A DNA stretch of 64,000 nt from the sequence record MK327931.1; one strand, 5' to 3'. The position numbers and the translations under genes are program-made. This stretch comes from Escherichia phage vB_EcoM_G17. Below, one piece after another: positions 6,569-34,380 of this stretch. Positions within the stretch are counted from its first letter, which is position 1, and each line of letters starts with the position of its first letter. A model generated the notes under the pieces. It did no database searches and was not told the DNA's origin. It saw nothing but the letters and a program-made list of their open reading frames with translations.

Positions 6569-6591
6569 TTTTATTTCTCTCTCTTTGTTAG

Positions 6592-6652: not shown

Positions 6653-6655
6653 TAC

Positions 6656-7926: not shown

Positions 7927-7943
7927 AAGCTGTACTCCTTATA

Positions 7944-20891: not shown

Positions 20892-20933
20892 AGCCTGTAT
20901 AATGCTTCCACTACGGAGCTTCCCCTAGCTATA

Positions 20934-21125: not shown

Positions 21126-21140
21126 AGTATTCTCTATTAA

Positions 21141-21323
21141 TTAATATGATAGTACTAGTGTTAGTACTGAGCACAATTGTTCTTTGTAGTTCTTAGGGTA
21201 TATAGAATCTTTTATGCACTCATTGAAGTGCCATAGGTATAATCTTGGGTCGCATTCTTTATATATTCTTACGGGGACGAATGTTAGTTTTCTTATATAG
21301 AATTCTTTATGTTCTTTATTCAT
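21141..21323 (-). CDS. MHKEYY-family small protein (member 2)
   Basis: 60 aa; MNKEHKEFY...FNECI. Confidence 0.6.
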   Translation of the reverse strand: MNKEHKEFYIRKLTFVPVRIYKECDPRLYLWHFNECIKDSIYPKNYKEQLCSVLTLVLSY

Positions 21324-21328
21324 ATTAG

Positions 21329-21514
21329 TTAGTGTCTGTATATAAGTAATAGTAAGAATACGTACTGCACATCTTCATCTTTAGTATTGAGTACTGTACG
21401 TATTGCGTCATGGAACAAGAATATAGTACTTGGGTCATGAAAATTTAAAGGGGTTCTGGGTACGGCATGTTTGTAGTTCCCTTTAACAAATTGTGTGTAG
21501 TATTCTCTATGCAT
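21329..21514 (-). CDS. MHKEYY-family small protein (member 3)
   Basis: 61 aa; MHREYY...LLLLIYRH. Confidence 0.6.
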   Translation of the reverse strand: MHREYYTQFVKGNYKHAVPRTPLNFHDPSTIFLFHDAIRTVLNTKDEDVQYVFLLLLIYRH

Positions 21515-21515
21515 A

Positions 21516-21701
21516 TTAGTACCTATATATTAGGGCGAGAATGTAGTACAATTCATATGGAATGTAATTTGGGGTGATCGCACACTGTGTATGGTAAATG
21601 AATTGTTCGGTATTTTTCTTATCCTTGATATCTATTGGGATTAGTGGTATAAGCATTTGGGAGTTTAGATCCAGATGGCTTAAGTAGAATTCTTTATGCA
21701 T
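21516..21701 (-). CDS. MHKEYY-family small protein (member 4)
   Basis: 61 aa; MHKEFY...ILALIYRY. Confidence 0.6.
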   Translation of the reverse strand: MHKEFYLSHLDLNSQMLIPLIPIDIKDKKNTEQFIYHTQCAITPNYIPYELYYILALIYRY

Positions 21702-21710
21702 ATTGTTCTC

Positions 21711-21899
21711 TTAGAATACGAAAGCTAGGTACAGGGTATGATACAGTACTCGATGGTAGCTGTCAAAATCTAGTATACATGCTTTAGTGCACATAGTAAA
21801 ATACACTTTATCATTTTGTGCATTGATACCGCGAGGTTTATCTAATAGATTAGTTCTGAGGTACATTGGGAAATATTTTGTGTAGTATTCTTTATGCAT
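21711..21899 (-). CDS. MHKEYY-family small protein (member 5)
   Basis: Track ORF 21711..21944 trimmed to internal MHKEYY start. Confidence 0.55.
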   Translation of the reverse strand: MHKEYYTKYFPMYLRTNLLDKPRGINAQNDKVYFTMCTKACILDFDSYHRVLYHTLYLAFVF

Positions 21900-21900
21900 G

Positions 21901-22083
21901 TTAGTACCTGAATATAAGTAGGATAGTGTTATATAGCTGGTCATAACTACTACTATTTTCTATACTTCGTTCTATGCAGTTATTGAATCCCAGTACTGCC
22001 AAATCGTTATCCAGAGGGACTTTATATCTGGCGTAGTGTACAAAAATGCTGGGGAGAAATTGTGTGTAGTATTCTTTGTGCAT
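21901..22083 (-). CDS. MHKEYY-family small protein (member 6)
   Basis: 60 aa; MHKEYYTQF...FNNCI...LLIFRY. Confidence 0.6.
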   Translation of the reverse strand: MHKEYYTQFLPSIFVHYARYKVPLDNDLAVLGFNNCIERSIENSSSYDQLYNTILLIFRY

Positions 22084-22084
22084 A

Positions 22085-22276
22085 TTAGTACCTATATATT
22101 AGTAAAAGGATGTGATACAGTACTCGATTATAGTCTTCAATATATATCGAGGATTTAGTGCACTGAATGAAGTAGTCTTTTTCGTAGTTTTTTTCTATAC
22201 CCAATGGTTCTGTTGGTACAAGGTGTTGGAGATACATTGGGAGTTTCTCTATGTAGTATTCTTTGTGGTTATTCAT
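22085..22276 (-). CDS. MHKEYY-family small protein (member 7)
   Basis: 63 aa; MNNHKEYY...LLLIYRY. Confidence 0.6.
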   Translation of the reverse strand: MNNHKEYYIEKLPMYLQHLVPTEPLGIEKNYEKDYFIQCTKSSIYIEDYNRVLYHILLLIYRY

Positions 22277-22277
22277 A

Positions 22278-22460
22278 TTAGTACCTGAATGTTAGCATTA
22301 CTACGTAGTACAGCATATATGGATTATCATCGTATATGAGCGTGTACTTAGTACATTGTTGGAACATTATCTTTGCGTGATCTTTTATTCCTATTGGTTC
22401 TGTTGGTATATGGTGCTGGAGATGCATAGGGATTTTATCCCTGTAGTATTCTTTGTGCAT
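22278..22460 (-). CDS. MHKEYY-family small protein (member 8)
   Basis: 60 aa; MHKEYYRDK...FQQCTK...MLTFRY. Confidence 0.6.
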   Translation of the reverse strand: MHKEYYRDKIPMHLQHHIPTEPIGIKDHAKIMFQQCTKYTLIYDDNPYMLYYVVMLTFRY

Positions 22461-22470
22461 GTTGTTCTCT

Positions 22471-22653
22471 TTAGTACTTATATATTAGGAGTAAAATGTT
22501 ATAGTACTGGTTCATTGCGTCATCATTTTCTATAGCACGTTTTACGCTATTCATGTAGTTAGATCGAGCGGCACGAGTTATGAGAAGAACTTTGTATGCA
22601 GCAAAGTATTTTTGCTGCACGGGTAGTTTAGAGATATAGTATTCTTTATACAT
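22471..22653 (-). CDS. MHKEYY-family small protein (member 9)
   Basis: Track ORF 22471..22716 trimmed to MYKEYYISKLP; start overlaps stop of the 223 aa gene (ATGTATAA). Confidence 0.55.
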   Translation of the reverse strand: MYKEYYISKLPVQQKYFAAYKVLLITRAARSNYMNSVKRAIENDDAMNQYYNILLLIYKY

Positions 22654-23317
22654 AGTTTGTAATATACGTAATGAGGTGATGCATTTTCTTATTAGTACTG
22701 ATAATTTCCTGTACATGTTTTGTCAGATTGTACGCGTTTTTATAGAGTACTGGATTATCGATTACAGTACTGTACATGAATAGTTCTTCTTCCTGTAGTT
22801 CTTTGTGTTCTAGTTCTTTGAGGAAATCTACAATTGATTTAGTTTCTTCTGAACGTTGTGCTTGCCAGAAGTGCATATTCTCGTGTACTTTTTCTGCATC
22901 AGTAGAGTATATGCCACCCATTTGGAATTGTGCTGTATTGACATCGTGGGAGGTGTTACAATTCCCGAAGAAGTATGTATTCCCGAAGTATAGCATTAAA
23001 GTGCACGGGGTATTATCCAACTGCATATTGATGATGAAGGATGCGTTCTTTAGTACCTTTGTGCTCGTATTAGTACTCAATACTTTTAAATCAGTATTAT
23101 AGATATTCATATAATGAACAGCTATATTATTTTTCTTCATGTACAATTCAAGGTTCTTTGATACGTTAACTCCATTTGTACTGGATTTTTCCTTTTTATT
23201 TCGTTTCTTTAGTACATTCGGGTGATACGTATATGCAGATGTAACTGATTCTGCCTGAATACTATTGAGGTACTTAAAGTGCTTAAGGTATTGTTTGCTG
23301 TGTGCATTAAGTTTCAT
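22646..23317 (-). CDS. hypothetical protein (223 aa) embedded in the small-protein operon
   Basis: Track lists it as +, but the stop (rc tta at 22646-22648) and ATG (rc cat at 23315-23317) are on the minus strand; AAGGAAA SD upstream. Confidence 0.6.
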   Translation of the reverse strand: MKLNAHSKQYLKHFKYLNSIQAESVTSAYTYHPNVLKKRNKKEKSSTNGVNVSKNLELYMKKNNIAVHYMNIYNTDLKVLSTNTSTKVLKNASFIINMQLDNTPCTLMLYFGNTYFFGNCNTSHDVNTAQFQMGGIYSTDAEKVHENMHFWQAQRSEETKSIVDFLKELEHKELQEEELFMYSTVIDNPVLYKNAYNLTKHVQEIISTNKKMHHLITYITNYV

Positions 23318-23327
23318 TTGGTTTCCT

Positions 23328-23507
23328 TTATATAGATGCCAGGGCGAGGATTTCCCTGTAGGGATTATCTTGTGTTAGTACAGCATAAATGCAGCTATTG
23401 AGATTAATATTTTTAGTACTTTTTGTTCCTAGTTTGTAGTACTTCACGAAGGTGTCGTACATGAAACGGTCTTTTATGGTTATACGTTCTCTATAGAATT
23501 GTTGCAT
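23328..23507 (-). CDS. MHKEYY-family small protein (member 10, 59 aa)
   Basis: Hand-translated (MQQFYRERITIKDRF...ILALASI), below track cutoff. Confidence 0.4.
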   Translation of the reverse strand: MQQFYRERITIKDRFMYDTFVKYYKLGTKSTKNINLNSCIYAVLTQDNPYREILALASI

Positions 23508-23515
23508 AGTATTCC

Positions 23516-23698
23516 TTAAATAGCGATTAGTTTCATTACTTCTCTGTATGTGTACTTTTCGTTTTGTGCATCTCTTGTGACGACATATAGGAAGGTGTGT
23601 TTATCTTTTTTGTTCCCGCAATTGTAGAAAATATTGAACTTATTGAAGTTGAATCTTTCGGCGTGTTGTAGTTTAGTTAAATAGAATTCTATGTTCAT
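23516..23698 (-). CDS. MHKEYY-family small protein (member 11)
   Basis: 60 aa; MNIEFYLTKL...MKLIAI. Confidence 0.55.
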   Translation of the reverse strand: MNIEFYLTKLQHAERFNFNKFNIFYNCGNKKDKHTFLYVVTRDAQNEKYTYREVMKLIAI

Positions 23699-23706
23699 TT
23701 TCTTCC

Positions 23707-23892
23707 TTACATTTCAATAAGTTTAAGTACTGCTCGGTACGTGTACTTAGTTGTTAGTGCTTCTTTAATAGAAATGCAGAAGTAATGTTGTTTGTCTCTT
23801 ATACTGCCGCGTTTGTAGTACCACACATGGGAGTTGTGACTGTACTTGTCTCTGTCGGATAGTTGTTGGTAGTAGTAGCTTATATGATTCAT
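23707..23892 (-). CDS. MHKEYY-family small protein (member 12)
   Basis: 61 aa; MNHISYYYQQL...LKLIEM. Confidence 0.55.
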   Translation of the reverse strand: MNHISYYYQQLSDRDKYSHNSHVWYYKRGSIRDKQHYFCISIKEALTTKYTYRAVLKLIEM

Positions 23893-24101
23893 TATAATGT
23901 AATTAGCCTTACTATATTAAAGTACTCGGTCCCTGGTGTACCTTGTAGTATATTACGCACGACATTTTTTTGGTGCTGGATGATTGCTGAAGGTGCGGTT
24001 CTTTTTAGTTTTTTTAAAGTACTGAATTCTTGTTTAAGTATGAACTGTACATCTTTAGGGAGAATATCTATGTAGTACTGATGAATGTTTGTAGTTTTCA
24101 T
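23892..24101 (-). CDS. MHKEYY-family small protein (member 13)
   Basis: 69 aa; MKTTNIHQYYIDILP...VRLITL. Confidence 0.55.
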   Translation of the reverse strand: MKTTNIHQYYIDILPKDVQFILKQEFSTLKKLKRTAPSAIIQHQKNVVRNILQGTPGTEYFNIVRLITL

Positions 24102-24111
24102 ATAGCACCTT

Positions 24112-24306
24112 TTAGAACTTAAAGATGAGGTTCAGGATAGAGCGGTACTTAGTTTCAGGGAACTGATGTTCTATTGCATAACGTGTCGCCATCCTGAAAT
24201 CGTAATTGTAATATAGATTATCCTTTCTCATAGGTGGTGCTAAAGAGAATGATAGCTGGTCTTGCTTGTGTAGTTTACTACCATAGAAATCTTTATGATT
24301 ATTCAT
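24112..24306 (-). CDS. MHKEYY-family small protein (member 14)
   Basis: 64 aa; MNNHKDFY...LNLIFKF; start overlaps upstream stop (ATGAATAA). Confidence 0.55.
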   Translation of the reverse strand: MNNHKDFYGSKLHKQDQLSFSLAPPMRKDNLYYNYDFRMATRYAIEHQFPETKYRSILNLIFKF

Positions 24307-24508
24307 AGAAGTAGATTAGTCCTATTAAACCTGAGTACATAATATTTTTGTTATTGCATTCGATTGCTTCTAGAGTACTACGTATACAATTATTAAAGCA
24401 ATCTCTACCGAAGTGAGTATTGGTACTTACAGGTGATACACTCCTTAGAAACAATTGTTCTTCGTTGCTAAGGTATTTGGTGTAGAATTCTTTATGTTCA
24501 GTATTCAT
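24299..24508 (-). CDS. MHKEYY-family small protein (member 15)
   Basis: 69 aa; MNTEHKEFY...FNNCIRS...LIGLIYFYE. Confidence 0.55.
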   Translation of the reverse strand: MNTEHKEFYTKYLSNEEQLFLRSVSPVSTNTHFGRDCFNNCIRSTLEAIECNNKNIMYSGLIGLIYFYE

Positions 24509-24509
24509 A

Positions 24510-24713
24510 TTAGTACTCGATTAAAAGGGCAAGGATATAATAGTATTGCATACTTTCTGCCCCTTGTAAAGCATTTCTTATGATATTACTCCTGTACGAG
24601 TTCAGGAGTTTAGGACAACGTTTGTAGTGTATAAAAGTATTTTGTGTATACAGTAGGCTTTCTCGTAGACCTTTTGTTGGTAGTGCATCGATGTAGTACT
24701 GTTCAATGTTCAT
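24510..24713 (-). CDS. MHKEYY-family small protein (member 16)
   Basis: 67 aa; MNIEQYYIDALP...LALLIEY. Confidence 0.55.
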   Translation of the reverse strand: MNIEQYYIDALPTKGLRESLLYTQNTFIHYKRCPKLLNSYRSNIIRNALQGAESMQYYYILALLIEY

Positions 24714-24937
24714 ATAGATAGCAGTACTAAGATTTTTGATAATTGTTTATTGCTATCCCCGCAGATGTTGCTGTGTAAAATACTCACAATGAGGGTATCA
24801 ATTGCATTGTTCATCATAAGGGTGCATCTTGGACTATTATAATTTTTTAGCTCAATTAGCCACGAACTATCCGAGAGAAATTCCCCGTACTCTAGTTCAT
24901 TTAGAGTATTGAGGTAGTACTTAAGAGTATTTGTCAT
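24710..24937 (-). CDS. MHKEYY-family small protein (member 17, first gene of operon)
   Basis: 75 aa; MTNTLKYYLNTL; AAGGAG SD; promoter TTGACA-N17-TACTAT upstream on minus strand. Confidence 0.55.
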   Translation of the reverse strand: MTNTLKYYLNTLNELEYGEFLSDSSWLIELKNYNSPRCTLMMNNAIDTLIVSILHSNICGDSNKQLSKILVLLSI

Positions 24938-25039
24938 GTGTAGTTCTCCTTATATTCCTTCTATAGTACACCAGTACTGAAAGGATGTCAAGGGTTTTCT
25001 TTATGGGGTAAATATGATATAATGAATAAGGAGGGATTT
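24938..25039. promoter_or_regulatory. divergent promoter region between the small-protein operon (minus) and the MLPF/RCC1-like array (plus)
   Basis: Minus: TTGACA-N17-TACTAT then AAGGAG; plus: TATAAT at about 25016 then AAGGAGGG and ATG at 25040. Confidence 0.55.
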
Positions 25040-26176
25040 ATGTTACCTTTTGTTAGAATGTTAAATTATGGGAACGTAGCACCAGAAAAACTAAAAGTTC
25101 GTGATATTGTTGCAGGTGCTAATTCATTATTACTAATAACCGAGGATAATGAATTATGGGTGCGTGGTAATAATTCGTATGGCAAATTAGGTATAGGAAC
25201 TGATACTATAGTGAATGTAACCGAGTGGACTAAAGTTAGAGATGATGTTAAGTTTGCTTGTGCTAGTAATTTAGTATGCGTTGTATTAACTGTAGATAAT
25301 AAAATTTTCTACTGTGGTGATGAATGGTTTGAATCTGGTGGTTCGACAAGTTCTAAAGTTGTTACATGGAAAGATGTTACGACACAATTTAGTGCAGTGA
25401 ATCTAAGCACAGTACGTGAAATGAAAATGACTTCTTATTGTGTAGGATTACTTACAAATGATAATAGATTATATGCTAAAGGATATGATAATAACCAATC
25501 ATTTGGTGGTTCAACAAGCAAAGTTAATGCTGTATTAGTTGCGTCAAATGTTTCAAAATTCTACACTTCTCTATCTGGTACTATATATTCTAGTACTACT
25601 GGTGGTTACTACCGCTGTGGTATAAGCAATACTGGAGCATTGGGTACTAGCACAAATTTAACTTCTTATAATTTGTACTCTGCTCCCGAATTTGCATCCG
25701 AATGTGCAGTTGGTATGTCAACATTAAACTCTGGTATATTATATTATGATACTAATGGTAGCACTAGATATGTTATAGCAGGTCAAAATAGATATTATCA
25801 ACTAGGTAATTCTTCTTCAAATACCACAAACGTATATTCGTATACAGAATTAACCGGATATAGAGGCAGGTTTAGGGATTTGTGGAGTGATATGAATAAC
25901 TCTGTTCTTTCTTTTGCTATAAGCACAGATGGCAATACTTTATATTATGCTGGTACTAACACTACACTATCTTCTGGTGACCCTGGTGTTGAATATTCAT
26001 CTACATTTAAAGAAGTACCACACGGGTTTAATGATATAACAAAGGCGGCATCGTTAGCCTATCTATCTATAGTGCAAGATTCAACGGGATGGTATTATTC
26101 TGGAAATGCAACTACGTTATATGGTTTGCCATCGAGTGATGAATTTATACCATTACCATTACCAACAATAATTTAA
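25040..26176 (+). CDS. MLPF-family RCC1-like repeat protein R1
   Basis: N-terminus MLPFVRMLNYGNVAP; repeated G-x-N-x-(Y/G)-(G/Q)-LG-x-G motifs (NNSYGKLGIGT, QNRYYQLGNSS); start trimmed from 25022 to the ATG with AAGGAGGG SD. Confidence 0.7.
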   Translation: MLPFVRMLNYGNVAPEKLKVRDIVAGANSLLLITEDNELWVRGNNSYGKLGIGTDTIVNVTEWTKVRDDVKFACASNLVCVVLTVDNKIFYCGDEWFESGGSTSSKVVTWKDVTTQFSAVNLSTVREMKMTSYCVGLLTNDNRLYAKGYDNNQSFGGSTSKVNAVLVASNVSKFYTSLSGTIYSSTTGGYYRCGISNTGALGTSTNLTSYNLYSAPEFASECAVGMSTLNSGILYYDTNGSTRYVIAGQNRYYQLGNSSSNTTNVYSYTELTGYRGRFRDLWSDMNNSVLSFAISTDGNTLYYAGTNTTLSSGDPGVEYSSTFKEVPHGFNDITKAASLAYLSIVQDSTGWYYSGNATTLYGLPSSDEFIPLPLPTII

Positions 26177-26182
26177 ATACAG

Positions 26183-26211
26183 GCCAGTACTTGATACTGG
26201 CTTTTCTTTTT
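26183..26211 (+). terminator. Rho-independent terminator after R1 (GCCAGTA-N5-TACTGGC plus T-run)
   Basis: Inverted repeat followed by ttttctttttt; next promoter -10 TATAAT at 26226-26231. Confidence 0.6.
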
Positions 26212-26247
26212 TGTATTAAATATAGTATAATGAATAAGGAGGGAAAT

Positions 26248-27450
26248 ATGTTACCTTTTGGAAGAATGGTTAAGTACGCAAATATTGCACCAGGTCCAGA
26301 ACCTGTAGAGTTCTCAGATGTTTTACAACAACATTATACAAACTGTATGTATCTCCATAACCCAACTAATACTTTATATGGTTATGGTAGTAATAACTTT
26401 TACCAATTTGGTCTTGGGAATTCAGCAGCAGTTTCGTCATTTACAGTACTTGCAAGGAACTGTGCAGCCTTTTGGCTTGGTGTTCAAGGTTCATTGATGA
26501 TTGATTTGGATAATAAAATATACTACACTGGGTCGGTTGGTGCATTTTCTGATTATGGAGATGCAACACCTGTTAATGGTTATTTGACAACATGGACTGA
26601 TGTTACTGTTGCATTTAATAAAATAGGTGTTATGGCTAATATGATCAAGAGTGTATATATAGGTGAAAGTACTAGAATATTATTAACCGATGGTAGAGTA
26701 ATTGCGTGTGGAAGAAATACTAATGGTGAATGTGGCTCTGGTAATAAAAATTCCATCCCTACACTCACAGTTATGACTAATATGGGTGAAGTTACACATA
26801 TGGCATGTTCATTACAAGGAACGCACTATATCAAATCAAATAAAGATGCATGGTTTTGTGGTAAGGATAACTTTGGTGAAAGTGGATGTGGTGGTAGTTT
26901 TGTTGTATATTTGAACAAATTCGTGATTAGTAATGTAGAACATATTAGTACTACATACGATGTTACTTGGTGGTTTACTACTGGTGGGCCTGTATATTAT
27001 AGCGGGGCTAACAGTTCTGGACAAGCTGGTAATGGTACGACTACATCGGTAAATCAGCTAACACCAATTAGGAACACATCGGTCACGGTTGATGTAAGTA
27101 AGTACAGTACTTTTATTTGTCCAAGTAATATGGGAAATGCATCAATTGGTGCACCTATGGCACAATACGCACCATATGTTAGAAGTAGTGGTGCTAACTC
27201 ATATGGTCAAGAAGGTAATGGAACTAATACATTAGTTAGAACTTGGAATATTTTTAATCTTAGTGCAATAAGTGGTGGTTATGACAATGTTCTTATGGCA
27301 TCTAAAGATTGGAGCAGAACCATAATAATTACTAAAGATTATAAATTATATGCATGTGGTGGCTGGAATGGTAGTGGTGGTAGATTACCTGATGGCACTT
27401 ATAGTATTACTACACTAACATTAATGCCAACGCAGTTATGGCAACAATAG
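26248..27450 (+). CDS. MLPF-family RCC1-like repeat protein R2
   Basis: MLPFGRMVKYANIAP; motifs SNNFYQFGLGN, RNTNGECGSGN, ANSYGQEGNGT; start trimmed from 26191. Confidence 0.7.
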   Translation: MLPFGRMVKYANIAPGPEPVEFSDVLQQHYTNCMYLHNPTNTLYGYGSNNFYQFGLGNSAAVSSFTVLARNCAAFWLGVQGSLMIDLDNKIYYTGSVGAFSDYGDATPVNGYLTTWTDVTVAFNKIGVMANMIKSVYIGESTRILLTDGRVIACGRNTNGECGSGNKNSIPTLTVMTNMGEVTHMACSLQGTHYIKSNKDAWFCGKDNFGESGCGGSFVVYLNKFVISNVEHISTTYDVTWWFTTGGPVYYSGANSSGQAGNGTTTSVNQLTPIRNTSVTVDVSKYSTFICPSNMGNASIGAPMAQYAPYVRSSGANSYGQEGNGTNTLVRTWNIFNLSAISGGYDNVLMASKDWSRTIIITKDYKLYACGGWNGSGGRLPDGTYSITTLTLMPTQLWQQ

Positions 27451-27458
27451 GAGGGAAT

Positions 27459-28568
27459 ATGTTACCTTTTGGAAGAATGATTAGGTATGGAAATATTGTC
27501 CCTGGTCCTAAAAAAATAATTAAAGTTGGTGCTTCTACCCAAGGCCAATTCTTATTGACTGATTCACATGATTTATATTACATAGGTAGAAATCAAGGTG
27601 GTGAATCTGGAAATGGTAATACCAACACGGTGTCTTCGTGGACATTAGTAAGTGCAGATGTTTCTAATTTTTTCGTGGGTGATCGTACACTTGTTATTAT
27701 TAAAAATGATAATACGATATGGACATCAGGTCAAACGTACTGGTTCTCATCTTCTACAACTACTTCTTACAGTACTGTATTAGTTGAAAGAACTAATTGG
27801 TTTACCAATGCTATACCAGTAAGTGAAATTGCTAATATTGTATGCACAAATGGTTTAATATTTGTACTTAGCACTAATTCAGTACTCTATGGTGCAGGAG
27901 ATAATGGATATCGTGGTTCTTTGGGTATTGGTTCATCATCAATTTACACATTAACTCAATGTGCTACGAACGTTCGTAAAGTAATGACCAATGCGAATGA
28001 TAGTATGTATCTTACATTAGATAATAAGCTATATAGTTCTGGATGGAATAGTAGTGGGCAGCATGGTACGGGGAACCAAACACAAATTAACACTTGGGGA
28101 TTGCGTAGTTCTGGTGTAATCGATGCAGCCATTGGTGGTAATGCATTAAATTACTATAATGGTACATCATATTTCGTATGTGGTCAAACTCCAAACTTTC
28201 TTAGTTCAGGTACGACTACATTCCGTGCAGTTCCTTTAAGTACTTTGCCTAATAGTTCTCCATTGTTTATGACGAATTCACCTGCCTTAAATACTGCTAC
28301 ACAAATGGTAATTACTAGTACATATCAGAAGGGTGTTGGGGCGAACCGTGGTTTGGGATTAAACAATTCTCAAACTGGTGCTATATATAGTGCTACCAAT
28401 TTACAATTACCCGTTGAAGTTAGTGAGATTAGGGATGTTCTTTTTAGTGATGGTTTGACATCGATATTAACCAAAAATGGAGACGTGTATAGTACTGGAT
28501 CGTATTACGCCATTCCAGGTGCAATCGAGGATGTTGCAGTCTTTACTAAAATTGATTTACCAAAATAA
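27459..28568 (+). CDS. MLPF-family RCC1-like repeat protein R3
   Basis: MLPFGRMIRYGNIVP; motifs RNQGGESGNGN, DNGYRGSLGIG, WNSSGQHGTGN; no terminator between R2 and R3 (co-transcribed). Confidence 0.7.
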   Translation: MLPFGRMIRYGNIVPGPKKIIKVGASTQGQFLLTDSHDLYYIGRNQGGESGNGNTNTVSSWTLVSADVSNFFVGDRTLVIIKNDNTIWTSGQTYWFSSSTTTSYSTVLVERTNWFTNAIPVSEIANIVCTNGLIFVLSTNSVLYGAGDNGYRGSLGIGSSSIYTLTQCATNVRKVMTNANDSMYLTLDNKLYSSGWNSSGQHGTGNQTQINTWGLRSSGVIDAAIGGNALNYYNGTSYFVCGQTPNFLSSGTTTFRAVPLSTLPNSSPLFMTNSPALNTATQMVITSTYQKGVGANRGLGLNNSQTGAIYSATNLQLPVEVSEIRDVLFSDGLTSILTKNGDVYSTGSYYAIPGAIEDVAVFTKIDLPK

Positions 28569-28574
28569 CATAAT

Positions 28575-28604
28575 GCCAGTACTCTGTACTGGCTTTCTTA
28601 TTTG
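28575..28604 (+). terminator. Rho-independent terminator after R3
   Basis: GCCAGTAC-tct-GTACTGGC then T-rich tract. Confidence 0.6.
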
Positions 28605-28638
28605 TATTAAATATAGTATAATGAATAAAGGAGGGAAT

Positions 28639-29808
28639 ATGTTACCTTTTGGAAGAATGATTAAGTACGGAAATATTGCACCTGCTAAACCAAATATTAA
28701 AAAAATACTTGCTAACAACTATAATGTTGCTGTTTTAACAAACAGTGGTGATTTATATGTGCGTGGTGAGAATGCAAATGGTCTTTTGGGTTTAGGTCAC
28801 AAAAATACTGTTACTACATGGACTTATAGTACTTCTGGTGTTCAAGATTTTTGGATGGGAGCCACGACGATAGTTCTTAAGAAAAGCAATGATGAAATAT
28901 GGTACAGTGGAAGTTCAACAACTGTTGGTATGAAAGGGGCAGCAGTATCAATATGGACTTCTGCTATGCCAACATTCGATACATTAACATTACCAATATT
29001 AGATATAGCAGTTAGTTATCAGACTACAAGTGTGTTACTGTCAGACCAAACAATATGGAGTACTGGAGTGGGGTCAGATGGTCAGTTGGGTGATGGGACA
29101 ACAACTAACAATATTGCTGGTAAATTCGTCAAAAGTACTGTTCCGGCCGCAGCAAATCAATTACCTGTTAAATTGTTTGCAAGTAATTTAATGCACGGTT
29201 ATGTTACAAACCAAGGATGGCTATTTTATACAGGAAGAGTAAATGCAGTTACAAGTTCAGGAAGTAAGTTATATACTATATATTATGGTGCTCCTACCAG
29301 CTTAAGAAATACAATTAATATCAAGTACTACACGGAGAATGGTACTTCAATGGCAATGGCAATTGGTACTGATCCAAATGGAAAAACCATCATCGCAAAT
29401 GGCGGTTCGAGAATATTTGGTGCACAAGCAGATGGGACAAATGGTTCTCTCAATGATTATAGAGCATTTGAGGTTCAAACTGCTTCACTAATGCCACCCG
29501 GTGATGTAGTAAGCATTGCTAACAATACTTCATATTATAACCAAGTTATTGCTACAACAGATGGTATATATTGTTGCGGCTACAATCAATCTTCAGAAGC
29601 TGGTATGTTAGGTATTGGTACATCTACCAATGCATTGGTATATACCAAAGCAATCGTGCCTGATGGGTTTGATTATAGTAAGTCGCAGATGGCAGGTGGG
29701 TATAACCGAACTTATATAACTGATGGTAATTTTGTATATAGCACAGGGACAAATGTCACATATGGTGGCGTTAGTAGCTTAGAATTTGTATTAGATTCAC
29801 CAGTTTAA
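28639..29808 (+). CDS. MLPF-family RCC1-like repeat protein R4
   Basis: MLPFGRMIKYGNIAP; motifs ENANGLLGLGH, VGSDGQLGDGT, YNQSSEAGMLGIGT; start trimmed from 28477. Confidence 0.7.
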   Translation: MLPFGRMIKYGNIAPAKPNIKKILANNYNVAVLTNSGDLYVRGENANGLLGLGHKNTVTTWTYSTSGVQDFWMGATTIVLKKSNDEIWYSGSSTTVGMKGAAVSIWTSAMPTFDTLTLPILDIAVSYQTTSVLLSDQTIWSTGVGSDGQLGDGTTTNNIAGKFVKSTVPAAANQLPVKLFASNLMHGYVTNQGWLFYTGRVNAVTSSGSKLYTIYYGAPTSLRNTINIKYYTENGTSMAMAIGTDPNGKTIIANGGSRIFGAQADGTNGSLNDYRAFEVQTASLMPPGDVVSIANNTSYYNQVIATTDGIYCCGYNQSSEAGMLGIGTSTNALVYTKAIVPDGFDYSKSQMAGGYNRTYITDGNFVYSTGTNVTYGGVSSLEFVLDSPV

Positions 29809-29814
29809 ATATAT

Positions 29815-29845
29815 GCCAGTACTCTGTACTGGCATTCTTATTTGT
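29815..29845 (+). terminator. Rho-independent terminator after R4
   Basis: GCCAGTAC-tct-GTACTGGC then attcttatttg. Confidence 0.55.
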
Positions 29846-29879
29846 ATTAAATATAGTATAATGAATAAAGGAGGGAAAT

Positions 29880-31028
29880 ATGTTACCTTTTGCAAGAATG
29901 ATGAATTATGGGAATATTGCCCCTGGTAAGGATAGGCGTTTTAAAATATATTCAAGTGATTCTATGTATCTTCATGATACTTATACTAATAAGTTGTATG
30001 CATCTTCTGCGACGAATTGGGGTACTGGAACAGGTGTAGCATCGAGTAAATTTATTCTTTGTGCAGAGAATGTTAAACGAGTTCTATTGGAAGATAACAG
30101 TAGTAGTTGTCAATTGTATGAAGAGAAAGGTACTGGAAAAGTTTTTATCACTGGTAACACGAAGGCATTCACTGGTGTAACTGATACAAAAACTTTGTGG
30201 ACGGACTGTACTACGTGGATAACATCAGGTGGTATTAATGTTTCTGATATAAAATACATGAGTAGTTTTAATGATATGAAGGTGAATTTGATAACAAACG
30301 ATGGTACGTTGTATTGTTGTGGAGTTAACAATAACTCGAACCTATCATCATTTGGTGATGGTACAAACATTAATTCTTTTAACACATTCAAAAGGGTAGA
30401 TACTATAACTTCGGTTAAAAAGGCAGTTGGTAACATATACCTAAAAGAAGATAATACTTTATGGGGTTGTGGTTTTAACTATTACTATCAGTTAGGTACA
30501 GGTAATCAAACTTCTATTACTGGGGTGACGATGATTGCTTCGGATGTTATAGATTTTGATGTAAGTTATCAAAGTACATTTTTTATTAAATCGGATAATA
30601 ATTTGTACGCTTGTGGTAAACAGTTCGGTGCACAATACGGGAACGAATTTGGCACAGGTGGTACTTCTTCATCTACCGATATACAATACAAAACTCCGAC
30701 ATTATTGAGTTCAGGAGTTTATACTCTATATACTTGTGTTAGTAACATGGCATCACATATAGCTAAAGGTGATGAAGTTCTATACGCATCTGGGTCGAAT
30801 GGATTTGGTCAATTAGGTGTTGGTAATAATATTAATCAGTACTCATATACTCCTTCGTATACTTCGTTTAATAGTTCGTGTAATTTGGTACGCACTCCAT
30901 CTGGTTCACTTATACTTACGGACACTGAGCAATTATATTATTGTGGGTATGCTATGGTAGTAATGGGGGGAATTGCTGGACAAAACATTCTTAGTTATAC
31001 AGAAGTTGATATGTCATTTATACAATGA
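29880..31028 (+). CDS. MLPF-family RCC1-like repeat protein R5
   Basis: MLPFARMMNYGNIAP; motifs FNYYYQLGTGN, SNGFGQLGVGN. Confidence 0.7.
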   Translation: MLPFARMMNYGNIAPGKDRRFKIYSSDSMYLHDTYTNKLYASSATNWGTGTGVASSKFILCAENVKRVLLEDNSSSCQLYEEKGTGKVFITGNTKAFTGVTDTKTLWTDCTTWITSGGINVSDIKYMSSFNDMKVNLITNDGTLYCCGVNNNSNLSSFGDGTNINSFNTFKRVDTITSVKKAVGNIYLKEDNTLWGCGFNYYYQLGTGNQTSITGVTMIASDVIDFDVSYQSTFFIKSDNNLYACGKQFGAQYGNEFGTGGTSSSTDIQYKTPTLLSSGVYTLYTCVSNMASHIAKGDEVLYASGSNGFGQLGVGNNINQYSYTPSYTSFNSSCNLVRTPSGSLILTDTEQLYYCGYAMVVMGGIAGQNILSYTEVDMSFIQ

Positions 31029-31034
31029 TTTAAT

Positions 31035-31063
31035 GCCAGTACACTGTACTGGCTTTCTTATTT
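31035..31063 (+). terminator. Rho-independent terminator after R5
   Basis: GCCAGTAC-act-GTACTGGC then T-rich tract. Confidence 0.6.
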
Positions 31064-31099
31064 GTATTAAATATAGTATAATGAATAAAGGAGGAATTT

Positions 31100-32242
31100 A
31101 TGTTACCTTTTGCAAGAATGATGAATTATGGGAATATTGCACCAGAACCAAAACCTCTATTTAAAAATAGATTACAAGCAAATTATAATACTCGTTTTTA
31201 TTTGCATGTTAATGGTGACTTGTACTGGTATGGTTCATCTTCATTTGGACAAGGTGGTAATGGTTCATTACAATCATCCACCGTATGGACCCGTGTGAAT
31301 AATAATATTGAACGTTACTGGGGTGGTGTTCTTGGTTCCATTGCCATTAAGAATGATGGAACTATTTGGTTCACAGGTGCTAGTATAGTAATGCCACAAA
31401 TCGGAACAAATACAAATGGGGTTTGGATTGATGTAACCCAGTACTTCACTGATTTTGGTGTCAGTGCTGATGATATTGATGGTATTGCTGTTGGGCAGAA
31501 TTTGCGTGTATTTTTAAAAAATGGAAAATGGTTCTACTGTGGTACTGGCGAAGCTGGTGTATTTGGTAACGCGTCAACAGCTAATGTCACATCGTTCAGA
31601 TACAGCACTATAGAAAATGTTAAAAGTTATGGCTGTTCTTTGCTCAGTACTGGGTTAGTACTTGATGATGGCTCCTATTGGTATGCAGGAAATACTGTTG
31701 CTCCTGGTAGTACAAAAACATCAAATATATTAAGTTTTACAAAAGACAATACGATCACCAATGCTATACAAGCTGTAAATACATACCGTACTTCATATAT
31801 ATTTCTTAATGATGGTTCAGTGAAGGTTGCTTCACCAAATGCATATGGTCAAGCTGGTGTAGGTACAGTATCAGCAGTACCAATGAGTACATTAATTCCC
31901 AATTTATCATTCCAAGGTGAAATAGAGTTGGTGGGTGGTTTATCCAACAACGAAGGGAATGGATGTGTTGTTAAAAATAATAATAAGTTATATACTTGTG
32001 GTCGAAATACCTATGGTCTATGTGGTGTTAATCAAACATCCGAAAATATACTAACTTTCACCGAAATGGTTCTTGATGCATTAGAAGGAAGACGAATTTC
32101 AGGCTTCGTAAATGATAATTTCTATTCAATGATAATTGATGAAAATAACAATTTGTATATGTGTGGTTTGGCTGAACTTGGAAATGTTCCAGTCAATAGA
32201 GTTCCAACAAGGGTTCCTGATTCACTTCTACCGTGGAAATAA
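31100..32242 (+). CDS. MLPF-family RCC1-like repeat protein R6
   Basis: MLPFARMMNYGNIAP; motifs SSSFGQGGNGS, PNAYGQAGVGT, RNTYGLCGVN. Confidence 0.7.
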   Translation: MLPFARMMNYGNIAPEPKPLFKNRLQANYNTRFYLHVNGDLYWYGSSSFGQGGNGSLQSSTVWTRVNNNIERYWGGVLGSIAIKNDGTIWFTGASIVMPQIGTNTNGVWIDVTQYFTDFGVSADDIDGIAVGQNLRVFLKNGKWFYCGTGEAGVFGNASTANVTSFRYSTIENVKSYGCSLLSTGLVLDDGSYWYAGNTVAPGSTKTSNILSFTKDNTITNAIQAVNTYRTSYIFLNDGSVKVASPNAYGQAGVGTVSAVPMSTLIPNLSFQGEIELVGGLSNNEGNGCVVKNNNKLYTCGRNTYGLCGVNQTSENILTFTEMVLDALEGRRISGFVNDNFYSMIIDENNNLYMCGLAELGNVPVNRVPTRVPDSLLPWK

Positions 32243-32248
32243 TATAAT

Positions 32249-32278
32249 GCCAGTATCAAGTACTGGCATTTCTTTTTG
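32249..32278 (+). terminator. Rho-independent terminator after R6
   Basis: GCCAGTA-tcaag-TACTGGC then T-rich tract. Confidence 0.6.
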
Positions 32279-32312
32279 ATTAAATATAGTATAACAAATA
32301 AAGGAGGGAATT

Positions 32313-33500
32313 ATGTTACCTTTTGCAAGAATGATGAATTATGGGAATATTGCCCCAGTACCACTTCAAATTAAGAAAATAATCCCAACTGATTTAGATG
32401 TTGTGGTTCTGTATACGGATGGTCAACTATATGCACGTGGGAATAATAGTTTTGGGAAATTCGGTAGAGGAAACAACACTGCATTAAAATCATGGACATT
32501 AATTAGAGAAAACGTTAACGATTGCTGGCTTACACAAGGAACTTTATTAGTAAAAGACAATGACTCAAATTATTATTACTGTGGATATGGTAGTCATATT
32601 GGTTTATCAACTAGTACTACTACGTTTTTAAGTTATAACCAATATATTCAAAATTTGTACACACAAAGTTCAAGTACTTCAATTAAACAGATGTATGGAG
32701 GTACTACGTGGTTTACTTTCTTAATGGACAATAATACAATATGGAGTACAGGGTGGAACAGTGCTAGACAATTCGCCGATGGAACGGGAACTACTTATGA
32801 AATAACCGATGGTTCATTTGTAAAAGCGGTCACACCTAATGTTGATATTGCACAAATACAGTCAACAAATAACTGTGTATTGTTGTTTGATAAACAAAAT
32901 AATTTATATATTGGTGGTGTTACATCCGGTATAAGTTCCGCGACTACATGGACTTCATATAATCAATATACTTTATATCAACCAAATACAACATACACAA
33001 AAACGTTACAATACACAGGATGCTCAACTGGTGCAGTAAGTGCTTTAGTTGAAAATCCAAATACAGGAGCACGTCAGTTCCTTGTCGGTGGGTTAGCTAA
33101 TAATGGGGCATGGGGAAATAACACTACATCTAGCTCTGTTAATGGAGTTTTAGGAAATAACAGTACGACGTTACCACCCGGTACTTTGTATTCAATTCAT
33201 ACTGGATACCCACCACAATCTAGTATACTAATTACGAGTACTGGTGTATATGCAACTGGTTTAAATGCCAGTAGTTATGCTGGTTCATTGGGTATTGGTA
33301 CTAGTGCAACTGTTGGTAAGTTTACTGCATGTCCAATGCCTACACAAATAACATATTCTATGTATGATAAAATAAAAATATATAGAGGTTCATATCGTAC
33401 ATTTCTAACTGATATGAAAAATATATATTCAACCGGAACTTATGATGATGGTGGTCCTAGTACAACTAGATATGTACTAGATACACCCCGACAATTATAA
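32313..33500 (+). CDS. MLPF-family RCC1-like repeat protein R7
   Basis: MLPFARMMNYGNIAP; motifs NNSFGKFGRGN, NASSYAGSLGIGT. Confidence 0.7.
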   Translation: MLPFARMMNYGNIAPVPLQIKKIIPTDLDVVVLYTDGQLYARGNNSFGKFGRGNNTALKSWTLIRENVNDCWLTQGTLLVKDNDSNYYYCGYGSHIGLSTSTTTFLSYNQYIQNLYTQSSSTSIKQMYGGTTWFTFLMDNNTIWSTGWNSARQFADGTGTTYEITDGSFVKAVTPNVDIAQIQSTNNCVLLFDKQNNLYIGGVTSGISSATTWTSYNQYTLYQPNTTYTKTLQYTGCSTGAVSALVENPNTGARQFLVGGLANNGAWGNNTTSSSVNGVLGNNSTTLPPGTLYSIHTGYPPQSSILITSTGVYATGLNASSYAGSLGIGTSATVGKFTACPMPTQITYSMYDKIKIYRGSYRTFLTDMKNIYSTGTYDDGGPSTTRYVLDTPRQL

Positions 33501-33507
33501 TATAATA

Positions 33508-33537
33508 GCCAGTACTCAGTACTGGCTTTTCTTTTTG
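33508..33537 (+). terminator. Rho-independent terminator after R7
   Basis: GCCAGTAC-tca-GTACTGGC then ttttctttttg. Confidence 0.6.
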
Positions 33538-33572
33538 TATTAAATATATTATAATGAATAAAGGAGGGAATT

Positions 33573-34310
33573 ATGTTACCTTTTGGAAGAATGATTAAGT
33601 ACGGGAATGAAATTGAATATAAGCCACATGGTGAACAATTAATCACGACAATAGGAACAACACAATTTACAGTTCCTGCTGGCGTTACCGAAATATCAGT
33701 ATGTGTTATTTCGCCGGGTGGTCAACGTGGTGCTGGCGGCGGCTTATCGTGGCGTAATAATATTCCGGTTACTAGTGGTGAGTACTTAAGTGTTTCTCTT
33801 ACGCATACCAACACTACTACACCAGTTGAAAACGGTTTATATCGTGGAACTGAAAAACTATGTGTTAGCTTCACTGGTGCATATACGGTTGGTGGACTAG
33901 GTGGAAAAGCTGCTAACGCTATTAATGATGGTGGTGGTAATGGTGGCAATACTGGTGTAAGTGGTGGTGCAGTCATTGGTGGTGGTGCTGGTGGCTACAC
34001 AGGTAAAGGTGGTAACGGAGATGCAATCACTGGTGAAAATGGTGCTGGCGGCGGCGGGGGCGGTGGTACATTCTATAATACCTCGTTCATTGGTACGGGT
34101 GGTGGTACTGGTATCATTGTTCAAGGTGCTAATGGTATTGGTGGTAGCTACGGTGGTTCATATAATGGTGGTGCTGGTAGTGGTGGTGCTGGTAAGATGT
34201 ATGGTGGTGGTGGTAGTATATGGGATAATTCTTCTTATACGGCTGCTGGTGGTGGTGCTGTGCGAATAATATGGGGAAATGGGAGATATTATCCTAACAA
34301 TTCAGTATAA
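33573..34310 (+). CDS. MLPF-family glycine-rich protein R8 (245 aa)
   Basis: Same promoter/RBS cassette and N-terminus MLPFGRMIKYGN, but body is Gly-rich (GGAGGYTGKGGNGDAITGENGAGGGGGGG...). Confidence 0.65.
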   Translation: MLPFGRMIKYGNEIEYKPHGEQLITTIGTTQFTVPAGVTEISVCVISPGGQRGAGGGLSWRNNIPVTSGEYLSVSLTHTNTTTPVENGLYRGTEKLCVSFTGAYTVGGLGGKAANAINDGGGNGGNTGVSGGAVIGGGAGGYTGKGGNGDAITGENGAGGGGGGGTFYNTSFIGTGGGTGIIVQGANGIGGSYGGSYNGGAGSGGAGKMYGGGGSIWDNSSYTAAGGGAVRIIWGNGRYYPNNSV

Positions 34311-34317
34311 AATATAG

Positions 34318-34347
34318 GCCAGTACAGAGTACTGGCTTTTCTTTTTG
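34318..34347 (+). terminator. Rho-independent terminator after R8
   Basis: GCCAGTAC-aga-GTACTGGC then ttttctttttg. Confidence 0.6.
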
Positions 34348-34380
34348 ATTAAATATAGTATAATGAATAAAGGAGGAAAT

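What the first reader, a model, noticed from the sequence alone, without database searches (positions are those of the whole stretch)
33573..34310. Glycine-rich member swapped into the propeller array
R8 has the family promoter, RBS and N-terminus (MLPFGRMIKYGN) but its body is a Gly-rich low-complexity protein (runs such as GGAGGYTGKGGNGD, GAGGGGGGG, GGSYGGSYNGGAGSGGAG) with no RCC1 blade motifs. This shows the N-terminal module is combined with unrelated C-terminal bodies, arguing that the N-terminal peptide has an autonomous function.
Basis: partly seen in the sequence, partly recalled or inferred. Interest (0 to 1): 0.6.

Follow-up and report, generated by a model that had tools for sequence, protein, structure and literature searches.

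The report
Tagged glycine-rich jumbo-phage virion protein
The gene is real and encodes a folded, glycine-rich domain of the kind phages use at fibre tips; it carries the same 12-residue N-terminal tag as its propeller-protein neighbours, and in related giant phages this tag sits on at least five unrelated protein folds and marks proteins found in the virus particle.

Summary
The window is Escherichia phage Sharanji (Asteriusvirus, 350 kb). ORF 33573-34310 is gp113 (245 aa, 29% Gly), eighth gene of a 12-gene array. It shares the terminator/AT-rich/SD cassette and the MLPFGRMIKYGN start with 11 RCC1-like paralogues.

- **The tag is a protein-level module.** It recurs, with synonymous codon changes and unrelated upstream DNA, in Mimasvirus, Eneladusvirus and metagenomic jumbo phages. 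There it sits on RCC1, Kelch, ConA-like, glycine-rich and unknown bodies.
- **Gly-rich members occur elsewhere.** Serratia phage BF's array holds two. CBB_144 lies outside any array.
- **Virion association.** Published virion proteomics detect 9 of 11 tagged CBB proteins (including CBB_144), the tagged Gly-rich protein of three Erwinia phages, and six phAPEC6 array members.

Best reading: a short virion-incorporation (docking) tag that presents interchangeable binding domains. The docking site and the inside/outside location are unproven.

The parts
25040..39283 (+). Whole array gp106-gp118: 11 RCC1-like paralogues, the Gly-rich gp113, and a truncated remnant (gp118). Every member starts with the MLPF tag.
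   Evidence: The paralogues are only 18-37% identical to gp114, yet 8 of the 12 invariant alignment columns lie in residues 1-12.
33507..33527 (+). Terminator-like hairpin after gp112 (AGCCAGTACTCAGTACTGGCT followed by a T-run). It is the first element of the repeated cassette.
33535..33572 (+). Conserved AT-rich element with TATAAT (33550-33555) and Shine-Dalgarno AAAGGAGGG (33560-33568). Promoter function is inferred only.
   Evidence: The sigma-70 consensus scan is not informative here.
33573..33608 (+). Codons 1-12: the tag MLPFGRMIKYGN.
   Evidence: pLDDT is about 45 over residues 1-10.
33609..33629 (+). Residues 13-19 (EIEYKPH): a linker specific to gp113. Homology with the RCC1 neighbours ends here.
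33630..34307 (+). Residues 20-245: a TNF-like beta-sandwich (about residues 20-100) plus a glycine-rich region (about 100-245). This is related to PF21722 and resembles the Pam3 gp24 and ALK glycine-rich domains.
   Evidence: - AlphaFold: pLDDT 91.7, pTM 0.88.
- BFVD structure hits.
- Sequence homologues.
34308..34310 (+). Stop codon TAA.
34316..34338 (+). Terminator-like hairpin after gp113. It starts the next cassette, upstream of gp114.

Best explanation
gp113 is a genuine late-expressed structural (virion-associated) protein built from two modules.

**Module 1, residues 1-12 plus a short linker.** This is a flexible docking or incorporation tag shared by every gene of the array. I infer that it binds a common site on the assembling particle and so recruits whatever domain is fused behind it.

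**Module 2, residues 20-245.** This is a compact TNF-like plus glycine-rich domain. It is the same kind of domain that forms the receptor-recognising tip of the cyanophage Pam3 tail fibre and the accessory 'tail wing brush' of mycobacteriophage Bxb1.

**The array as a whole.** It is a hypervariable locus that gives the phage a changeable panel of small binding domains (propellers, lectin-like domains, glycine-rich domains). These most likely sit on the outside of the particle, where they would contact host or environmental surfaces.

**How the array turns over.** New members are gained, lost and reordered, plausibly by recombination in the repeated terminator/AT-rich/SD/tag cassette. The recombination mechanism is inferred from the cassette repeats and was not tested.

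**Shown:**
- The gene and its fold prediction.
- The modularity of the tag and the protein-level constraint on it.
- Virion association of tagged homologues in other phages.

**Inferred:**
- That the tag itself causes incorporation.
- The identity of the docking partner.
- The external location.
- The adhesin function.
For: **Real, conserved protein**
- 206 homologues in the first search, and 5057 representative clusters at E <= 0.001.
- The ORF is intact at 244-245 aa in the six Asteriusvirus genomes read, and tblastn finds a full-length match in 17 records.
- It has a strong Shine-Dalgarno sequence and its own flanking terminator-like hairpins.

**Fold**
- AlphaFold: pLDDT 91.7 and pTM 0.88, with only residues 1-19 at low confidence.
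- In Pam3 gp24 these domains recognise the host, and a separate N-terminal element docks the fibre to the baseplate (PMC9608196).
- Bxb1 gp33 is reported to attach through the wing-base protein gp30; gene 30 can be deleted, and a related phage lacks genes 30-35 (PMC12646305).

**Tag modularity**
- 45 tags from 6 genomes keep M1, L2, P3, F4, Y10, G/A11 and N12.
- The codons vary synonymously: CCT/CCA/CCG/CCC, TTT/TTC, TAT/TAC, GGA/GGG/GGT, AAT/AAC.
- The upstream regions are unrelated between genera.
- The bodies include RCC1, Kelch, ConA-like and glycine-rich domains.

**Gly-rich members elsewhere**
- Serratia phage BF's array holds two.
- CBB_144 carries the tag although it lies alone between nrdD and nrdG.

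**Virion association**
- CBB: 9 of at least 11 tagged ORFs are among the 55 of 554 ORFs found by virion MS (Fisher p = 2e-8; PMC5259590 Table 4).
- All six CBB structural proteins that are absent from GAP32 carry the tag.
- phAPEC6 gp003, 005, 006, 007, 009 and 010 are all tagged and all MS-positive.
- GAP32 gp001 is tagged and MS-positive.
- The Eneladusvirus 'PE-PGRS' Gly-rich protein and four 'DNA condensation' (RCC1-like) proteins are MS-positive in three phages.

**Against a bulk DNA-condensing role**
- The tag is not a propeller strand.
- The array proteins are not basic: pI 5.1-9.2.
- Their peptide counts resemble those of the portal or neck, not the capsid.
Against: - No experiment or structure shows what the tag binds, or that the tag is needed for incorporation. 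The link between tag and virion detection is a correlation among proteins that are also co-located and probably co-expressed.
- gp113 itself has never been detected. Its phAPEC6 orthologue was mis-annotated in the wrong frame, so it was missing from the MS database. The Sharanji paper does not mention it.
- Within Sharanji, codons 2-4 and 6 are identical at the nucleotide level in all 12 genes. Gene conversion therefore contributes to the conservation there.
- dN/dS among close orthologues is only mildly below 1 (0.1-0.85) and rests on few substitutions.
- Foldseek against the PDB gives the same top hits, but weakly (E 1.8e-3, TM 0.28).
- The external location rests on fold analogy and rough peptide counts only.
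Confidence: 0.6

Rival explanations
1. The tag is a capsid-targeting or cargo-loading peptide. On this reading the tagged proteins are packed inside the head, and perhaps injected. This would resemble the T4 internal proteins, whose short shared N-terminal targeting sequence precedes unrelated bodies at hypervariable loci, or encapsulin cargo peptides. (Both comparisons come from my own knowledge and were not tested here.)
For: - The architecture is the same: a short conserved N-terminal peptide with unrelated bodies.
- The locus is hypervariable and its members are found in virions.
- phAPEC6 has an inner body of unknown composition, and its authors proposed the RCC1-like proteins for it (PMC7247149).
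Against: - There is no conserved protease site. Position 9 is E in many CBB tags but K, N, R or Q in Sharanji and GAP32.
- The bodies are 24-43 kDa rigid propellers, lectin-like domains and fibre-tip domains with neutral pI. That is unlike small internal proteins.
- The nearest structural relatives are external fibre or wing parts.
- Peptide counts are low.
Confidence: 0.2
2. The tag recruits something other than the particle, for example a phage chaperone, a modifying enzyme or a membrane assembly site. Virion association would then be a property of the bodies or of co-expression.
For: - Pam3-type glycine-rich fibre tips need a dedicated chaperone (PMC9608196).
- In both Sharanji and CBB the tagged array lies next to an array of small membrane proteins and an AAA-like gene.
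Against: - Five unrelated folds would be unlikely to share one folding chaperone.
- Unrelated bodies would each need their own way into the particle, yet 9 of 11 tagged CBB proteins are in it.
Confidence: 0.12
3. The N-terminal identity is a nucleotide-level by-product of the repeated promoter/RBS cassette, arising from gene conversion or a translation-initiation element. On this reading it has no protein function.
For: - Within Sharanji, codons 2-4 and 6 never vary. The cassette alignment, which runs into the first codons, has 83% mean column identity.
Against: - Across genera the amino acids are kept through synonymous changes, and the upstream DNA is unrelated.
- gp108, 115, 116 and 117 lack the cassette but keep the tag.
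- The gp118 remnant uses CTA and CCC codons.
- CBB_144 and CBB_247 carry the tag at solitary sites elsewhere in the genome.
Confidence: 0.04
4. The Gly-rich ORF is a spurious or decaying reading frame, or an unstructured low-complexity product.
For: - The protein is 29% glycine.
- Neither Pfam nor NCBIfam hits gp113 itself.
- About half of the related phage records that matched this region lack the gene.
Against: - A deep family of homologues with invariant non-glycine positions.
- A confident fold prediction.
- Mass-spectrometric detection of tagged homologues in two genera.
Confidence: 0.02

Closest known systems
Cyanophage Pam3 tail fibre gp24 (PDB 7YPX/7YFW) and Salmonella phage S16 adhesin gp38
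   Same: - TNF-like beta-sandwich followed by a glycine-rich domain.
- Small size (250-280 aa).
- A separate N-terminal element does the docking (PMC9608196).
   Different: - Pam3 gp24 docks through a trimerising alpha-helical N-terminal domain. gp113 has only a 12-residue tag and no helical shaft.
- Sequence identity is 18%.
- The oligomeric state of gp113 is unknown.
- No chaperone gene is seen next to gp113.
Mycobacteriophage Bxb1 gp33 'tail wing brush' (PDB 9D93)
   Same: - A small accessory virion protein that is reported to attach to the wing-base protein gp30 rather than to core tail proteins. gp30 is not needed for growth, and a related phage lacks the whole gene 30-35 region (PMC12646305).
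   Different: - It belongs to a siphovirus of Actinobacteria.
- It has no MLPF tag.
- It is not part of a multi-fold tagged array.
ALK/LTK extracellular glycine-rich domain
   Different: It is a metazoan receptor that binds a cytokine. The resemblance is in fold only.
Pfam PF21722 (Gly_rich_2) / PHROG 4474
   Same: - phrog_4474 matches gp113 at E 4e-67.
- Distant homologues of gp113 pass the PF21722 threshold.
   Different: - gp113 itself gets no PF21722 hit.
- The phage BF paralogues score below the cut-off: 17.9 and 20.2 bits against 24.3.
T4 internal proteins with capsid-targeting sequence; encapsulin cargo-loading peptides (from my own knowledge, not tested here)
   Same: A short shared terminal peptide directs unrelated proteins into one HK97-type particle. 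In T4-like phages the corresponding locus is hypervariable.
   Different: - The tags have no conserved cleavage site.
- The bodies are large, neutral binding domains.
- Their location in the particle is unknown.
RCC1-like 'DNA condensation' protein arrays of Rak2-like phages (121Q_234-248, PBECO4, GAP32 gp001)
   Same: It is the same locus. The array and its virion association were described previously (PMC5259590, PMC7247149).
   Different: - The published lists skip 121Q_243, which is the gp113 orthologue.
- Neither paper, at the terms searched in them, mentions the shared tag or the glycine-rich member. Full-text searches of the paper library for the tag sequences also found nothing.
- The 'DNA condensation' label rests on the RCC1 name alone.

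Membership tests
Glycine-rich domain (PF21722 / Pam3 gp24-ALK GRD type) | Sequence match to the family profile above the curated threshold | tested here: inconclusive
   - gp113 has no Pfam hit at E <= 1.
- HMMER-linked homologues P0037 and P0043 pass PF21722 with 32.7 and 44 bits against a cut-off of 24.3.
- phrog_4474 matches gp113 at E 4e-67.
Glycine-rich domain (PF21722 / Pam3 gp24-ALK GRD type) | TNF-like beta-sandwich followed by a glycine-rich lattice domain | tested here: met
   - The AlphaFold model has pLDDT 91.7. Beta strands span residues 20-100; residues 100-245 have few regular strands or helices in DSSP but mostly high confidence.
- Foldseek returns the same top hits, but weakly.
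- This is a predicted structure, not a solved one.
Glycine-rich domain (PF21722 / Pam3 gp24-ALK GRD type) | Polyglycine-II helices packed in a lattice; trimeric assembly | not testable with these tools
   Model coordinates cannot be inspected, and no multimer prediction is available.
RCC1-like beta-propeller paralogues of the array | RCC1 blade repeats / propeller fold | tested here: not met
   - gp113 has no RCC1 or WD40_RLD hit, whereas its neighbours do.
- The predicted fold is different.
MLPF-tagged virion proteins of Rak2-like jumbo phages (operational group defined here) | N-terminus MLPFx[R/I/P]xxxY[G/A]N directly at the start codon, followed by a flexible linker | tested here: met
MLPF-tagged virion proteins of Rak2-like jumbo phages (operational group defined here) | Presence in purified particles | not tested
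   - This is shown only for homologues: CBB_144, the Eneladusvirus 'PE-PGRS' protein, and the array neighbours in phAPEC6.
- gp113 and its orthologues were never in a searched MS database.
T4-type capsid-targeting-sequence internal proteins | Prohead-protease cleavage site at the end of the targeting peptide | tested here: not met
   No conserved acidic residue. Position 9 is K, N or R in Sharanji, Q or K in GAP32, and E in only part of the CBB tags.
T4-type capsid-targeting-sequence internal proteins | Location inside the head and ejection with the DNA | not testable with these tools
   No localisation data exist.
PE-PGRS proteins (the database name given to the phage BF and Erwinia-phage homologues) | Mycobacterial PE domain plus PGRS repeats | tested here: not met
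   Neither gp113 nor the BF paralogues has a PE-domain hit. The name reflects glycine richness only.

The most novel reading that the evidence does not exclude
Rak2-like jumbo phages may have a general plug-in system. A 12-residue N-terminal peptide would dock any protein onto a shared set of sites on the particle, for instance on the unexplained capsid and tail 'hairs'. A dozen or more unrelated binding domains would then compete for the same sites, giving mosaic virions that can be reshuffled quickly. In CBB, all six structural proteins that are absent from GAP32 carry the tag, and the CBB authors looked among such CBB-only proteins for the source of its whiskers. The tag would also offer a ready-made display handle for engineering giant phages.
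Probability: 0.35. Interest if true: 0.75.

Novelty: new variant of a known kind. Interest (0 to 1): 0.6.

Why it matters
- **Re-reading the 'DNA condensation' genes.** The RCC1-like genes of 121Q-type coliphages have been read as chromatin-like factors because of their name. The shared tag points instead to one class of interchangeable particle-bound binding modules. The supporting facts are the fibre-tip fold of gp113, the neutral charge of the array proteins, and the proteomics from three genera.
- **An experimental handle.** A 12-residue peptide gives a concrete way to probe two open questions in these phages: what the capsid and tail hairs are made of, and how accessory virion proteins are recruited.
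- **A possible display tag.** The peptide could serve for displaying proteins on very large phages.
- **An annotation error.** The phAPEC6 gene model is in the wrong frame, which kept this protein out of the only Asteriusvirus virion proteome.

Tried and rejected
- **Foldseek against the PDB.** It gave only marginal scores.
- **Sigma-70 promoter scan.** It is not above shuffled background, so I do not claim a promoter.
- **dN/dS among close orthologues.** Too few substitutions to be decisive.
- **Propeller closing strand.** I considered that the tag might be the closing strand of the propeller. I rejected this because it is unstructured in the gp114 model and also occurs on non-propeller bodies.
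- **T4-like protease site.** Considered and rejected, because E at position 9 is not conserved.
- **A second tag type.** I checked whether the MxE(L/M)(L/M) starts of the closest non-jumbo homologues are a second shared tag. No neighbour with the same start was seen in the three loci examined. Not pursued further.
- **Peptide-level MS data for the N-terminus.** Not available in the held supplements.
- **Literature.** Searches for the tag sequences and for tag, RCC1 and Kelch in jumbo phages found nothing. The Sharanji paper does not mention these genes.

Full report
**Where the window comes from.** The window matches Escherichia phage Sharanji (OR545507.1, genus Asteriusvirus, 350 kb) at 100% identity over the 1 kb around the finding. 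This is the 121Q/PBECO4 group of Rak2-like jumbo phages. Window coordinate plus 15777 gives the record coordinate. The flagged ORF 33573..34310 (+) is Sharanji_gp113, annotated as hypothetical, and corresponds to 121Q gene 243.

**The observation.**
- The ORF encodes 245 aa starting MLPFGRMIKYGN, with 29% glycine.
- It is the eighth gene of a same-strand array, gp106-gp118 (25040-39283).
- The other eleven full-length members give RCC1/WD40_RLD Pfam hits where tested. All of them start MLPF[GAVS]RM[IVLM][KNR]Y[GA]N.
- The underlying DNA pattern occurs 13 times in the window, against 0.02 expected.
- gp113 shares a roughly 65-nt upstream cassette with seven other members. The cassette is the hairpin GCCAGTACnnnGTACTGGC, a T-run, GTATTAAATATAGTATAAT and AAAGGAGGG.
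- Similarity to the neighbours ends exactly after codon 12.
- Terminator-like hairpins flank the gene at 33507-33527 and 34316-34338. They are enriched in the array: 19 found against 6.3 expected.
- The sigma-70 consensus scan is not above background. Promoter activity of the AT-rich TATAAT element is therefore an inference.
- gp113 has no RCC1 motif and no Pfam or NCBIfam hit.

**The body is a folded domain, not low complexity.**
- PHROG 4474 matches at E 4e-67.
- A database search finds 206 homologues, most of them free-standing proteins of 240-280 aa. The distant ones carry PF21722, 'Glycine-rich domain'.
- An alignment of 32 homologues has 17 invariant and 35 nearly invariant columns. Conserved non-glycine motifs include VP.GVT, LSWRNNIPVTPGE, INDGGGNGG, GGGAGGY.GNGG and VRIIWG..R.YP.
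- A profile search of 1.84 billion representatives finds 5057 family members at E <= 0.001. Many carry the domain inside, or at the C-terminal end of, proteins of 500-5000 aa.
- AlphaFold2 with this alignment gives mean pLDDT 91.7 and pTM 0.88. Only residues 1-19 are at low confidence. Beta strands cover residues 20-100, and residues 100-245 have few regular strands or helices but mostly high confidence.
- Foldseek gives the same top hits but weakly against the PDB. Against predicted viral structures it gives clear hits, including the 'PE-PGRS family protein' of Erwinia phage pEa_SNUABM_47.
- Bxb1 gp33 is a peripheral protein reported to attach through gp30. Gene 30 can be deleted, and a related phage lacks genes 30-35 (PMC12646305).

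**The tag is a protein-level module.**
- The Sharanji RCC1 paralogues are only 18-37% identical to gp114, yet 8 of the 12 invariant alignment columns lie in residues 1-12.
- gp108, gp115, gp116 and gp117 lack the terminator/AT-rich cassette but keep the tag.
- The truncated gp118 remnant keeps MLPF with synonymous CTA and CCC codons.
- Scans of IMG/VR found the tag at the start of real reading frames only in jumbo genomes of about 350-380 kb; the few pattern hits in other contigs are a 548-aa protein of two ~20-kb contigs that I judged a probable chance match, or lie outside any MLPF reading frame. The jumbo genomes are:
  - 121Q;
  - CBB and GAP32 (Mimasvirus);
  - Serratia phage BF (Eneladusvirus, identified);
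  - another 354-kb isolate-type genome;
  - four metagenomic contigs.
- Across 45 tags from six genomes, the residues M1, L2, P3, F4, Y10, G/A11 and N12 persist while codons vary synonymously. The upstream DNA shares nothing but a ribosome-binding site.
- There are two tag flavours: MLPFx[R/I/Q/P]..xY[G/A]N and MLPF[P/S]IIS[N/Q/H]T.
- The bodies behind the tag include RCC1 propellers, Kelch propellers, an RCC1+Kelch fusion, Laminin_G_3/ConA-like domains, glycine-rich domains and several unknown domains of about 170-220 aa.
- In the AlphaFold model of the RCC1 paralogue gp114, residues 1-19 are again low confidence and are not a blade strand.
- The nucleotide-artefact alternative is therefore rejected across genera. 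Within Sharanji, however, codons 2-4 and 6 are invariant, so gene conversion probably adds to the similarity there.

- The Serratia phage BF array contains two tagged glycine-rich genes of 265 and 280 aa, interleaved with RCC1 genes.
- Pectobacterium phage CBB has one, CBB_144. It starts MLPFSPLIVYGN and lies alone between nrdD and nrdG.
- The gp113 body is closer to untagged homologues from other phages (52-56% identity) than to tagged CBB_144 (38%) or the BF copies (46%). Tag and body histories therefore differ, although glycine content inflates these identity figures.
- Among the 35 related phage records that matched this region, the full-length gene is present in 17 and absent from the rest.
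- In Turkey5, the gp112 orthologue is followed directly by another propeller gene.
- Array order and membership differ between Sharanji and phAPEC6.

**Virion association.**
- *CBB.* Virion ESI-MS/MS found 55 of 554 ORFs. These include CBB_144 (5 peptides, 34% coverage) and CBB_247, 536, 537, 548, 549, 551, 552 and 553 (PMC5259590).
  - All nine are tagged. Only the tagged CBB_550 and CBB_554 were missed.
  - This gives 9 of at least 11 tagged ORFs against 46 of 543 others (Fisher p = 2e-8).
  - The tagged set could be incomplete, because the scans fixed some codons.
  - All six structural proteins that CBB has and GAP32 lacks are tagged.
- *phAPEC6.* The six array proteins found by MS (gp003, 005, 006, 007, 009, 010) are all tagged.
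  - The gp113 orthologue could not be found by MS. GenBank annotates a wrong-frame ORF (gp004) inside the gene, and the true 244-aa gene is unannotated.
- *Eneladusvirus.* In three Erwinia phages, the single 'PE-PGRS family protein' is the tagged glycine-rich gene and lies beside the RCC1-like genes.
  - It was detected with 1, 6 and 13 peptides.
  - Four RCC1-like 'DNA condensation' proteins were detected with 3-25 peptides.
  - For comparison, the portal gave 5-30, the sheath 73-249 and the capsid 834-1337 (PMC7760394 Table S5).
- *GAP32.* Tagged gp001 is MS-positive.
- The array proteins have pI 5.1-9.2. That does not fit bulk DNA condensation.

**Mechanism.**
- The best-supported reading is that residues 1-12 are a flexible incorporation tag that docks onto a common site of the particle. 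The bodies would then be interchangeable binding domains.
- gp113 contributes a fibre-tip-type glycine-rich domain.
- An external location is favoured for three reasons: the kinds of fold involved, the nearest structural relatives, and the low portal-like peptide counts. It is not shown.
- The main rival is an internal cargo-targeting peptide, as in the T4 internal proteins (my own knowledge). Against it are the lack of a conserved cleavage residue and the size and nature of the bodies.
- A chaperone or other recruitment role cannot be excluded.

**Novelty.**
- The RCC1 arrays and their presence in virions are published (PMC5259590, PMC7247149). The glycine-rich fold is also known.
- Searches of the paper library, and term searches within the two array papers, turned up no mention of three points:
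  - the shared 12-residue tag;
  - its presence on at least five unrelated folds across three genera;
  - the glycine-rich array member.
- I therefore rate this a new variant of a known kind, namely modular virion proteins with a conserved anchor and a variable distal domain. It is of moderate to good interest and directly testable.

Noticed in passing
L002 7325-8059 (phAPEC6 MK817115.1); the same frame issue occurs at window 33961-34269 (+): GenBank phAPEC6 gp004 (7716-8018) is a Val-rich wrong-frame ORF lying inside the glycine-rich gene. The true 244-aa gene is unannotated, and so is the gp112 orthologue (6063-7253). The published phAPEC6 virion proteome therefore could not detect either protein.
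   Followed up: yes
window 40239-43019 (-) and 43085-43855 (-): There are eight paralogous small multi-pass membrane proteins (104-141 aa) followed by an AAA-like protein, gp128. The same arrangement (CBB_538-547) lies beside the tagged cluster of phage CBB. The tagged array therefore sits at a conserved locus next to a membrane-protein array.
   Followed up: partly
window 20934-24937 (-): A second paralogue array: about 15 tandem ORFs of roughly 60 aa on repeat units of about 190 bp. Function unknown.
   Followed up: no
window 19768-19895: A short tandem repeat with an 8-bp period (TCTAGCCG-like units). It lies in a gene-poor stretch close to where the GC skew changes sign, at about 20 kb.
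   Followed up: no
window 19500-25100 and the array terminators (e.g. 33507-33527): The palindrome CAGTACTG/AGTACT recurs many times. It forms the stems of the array's terminator-like hairpins, GCCAGTACnnnGTACTGGC.
   Followed up: no
window 27438-27479: The annotated start of gp108 (ATG at 27438, MATIGGNMLPF...) is probably wrong. The MLPF ATG at 27459 has its own AGGAGGG just upstream, like all the other array members.
   Followed up: partly
window 39083-39283: gp118 is a truncated first-blade remnant of an RCC1 paralogue. It has an internal MLPFRRI tag at 39149 that uses synonymous CTA and CCC codons, and a terminator-like hairpin overlaps its annotated start.
   Followed up: partly
L003 10001-11432; L005 9162-10783; L007 6998-7840: The closest homologues of the glycine-rich protein outside jumbo phages start MxE(L/M)(L/M) instead of MLPF. 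In two contigs they lie next to lysis genes: spanin-like genes downstream in L003, and a muramidase upstream in L005. In L003 the gene is also just upstream of the terminase. In PVP-SE1 the homologue is gp19.
   Followed up: partly
L027 1602-2336 (CBB_247) and L006 8001-8765 (CBB_144): Two tagged, MS-confirmed CBB structural genes are solitary insertions between conserved housekeeping genes: gp46-like/endoVII and nrdD/nrdG. CBB_247 is absent at that site in GAP32 and BF, and CBB_144 has no GAP32 homologue. Tagged genes therefore also spread as single cassettes.
   Followed up: partly
L013 6416-8416; L031 140-2158; L036 1903-3930: Metagenomic jumbo phages carry tagged proteins of about 670 aa. 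In the one scanned against Pfam (L013), an RCC1-like propeller is fused to a Kelch propeller.
   Followed up: no
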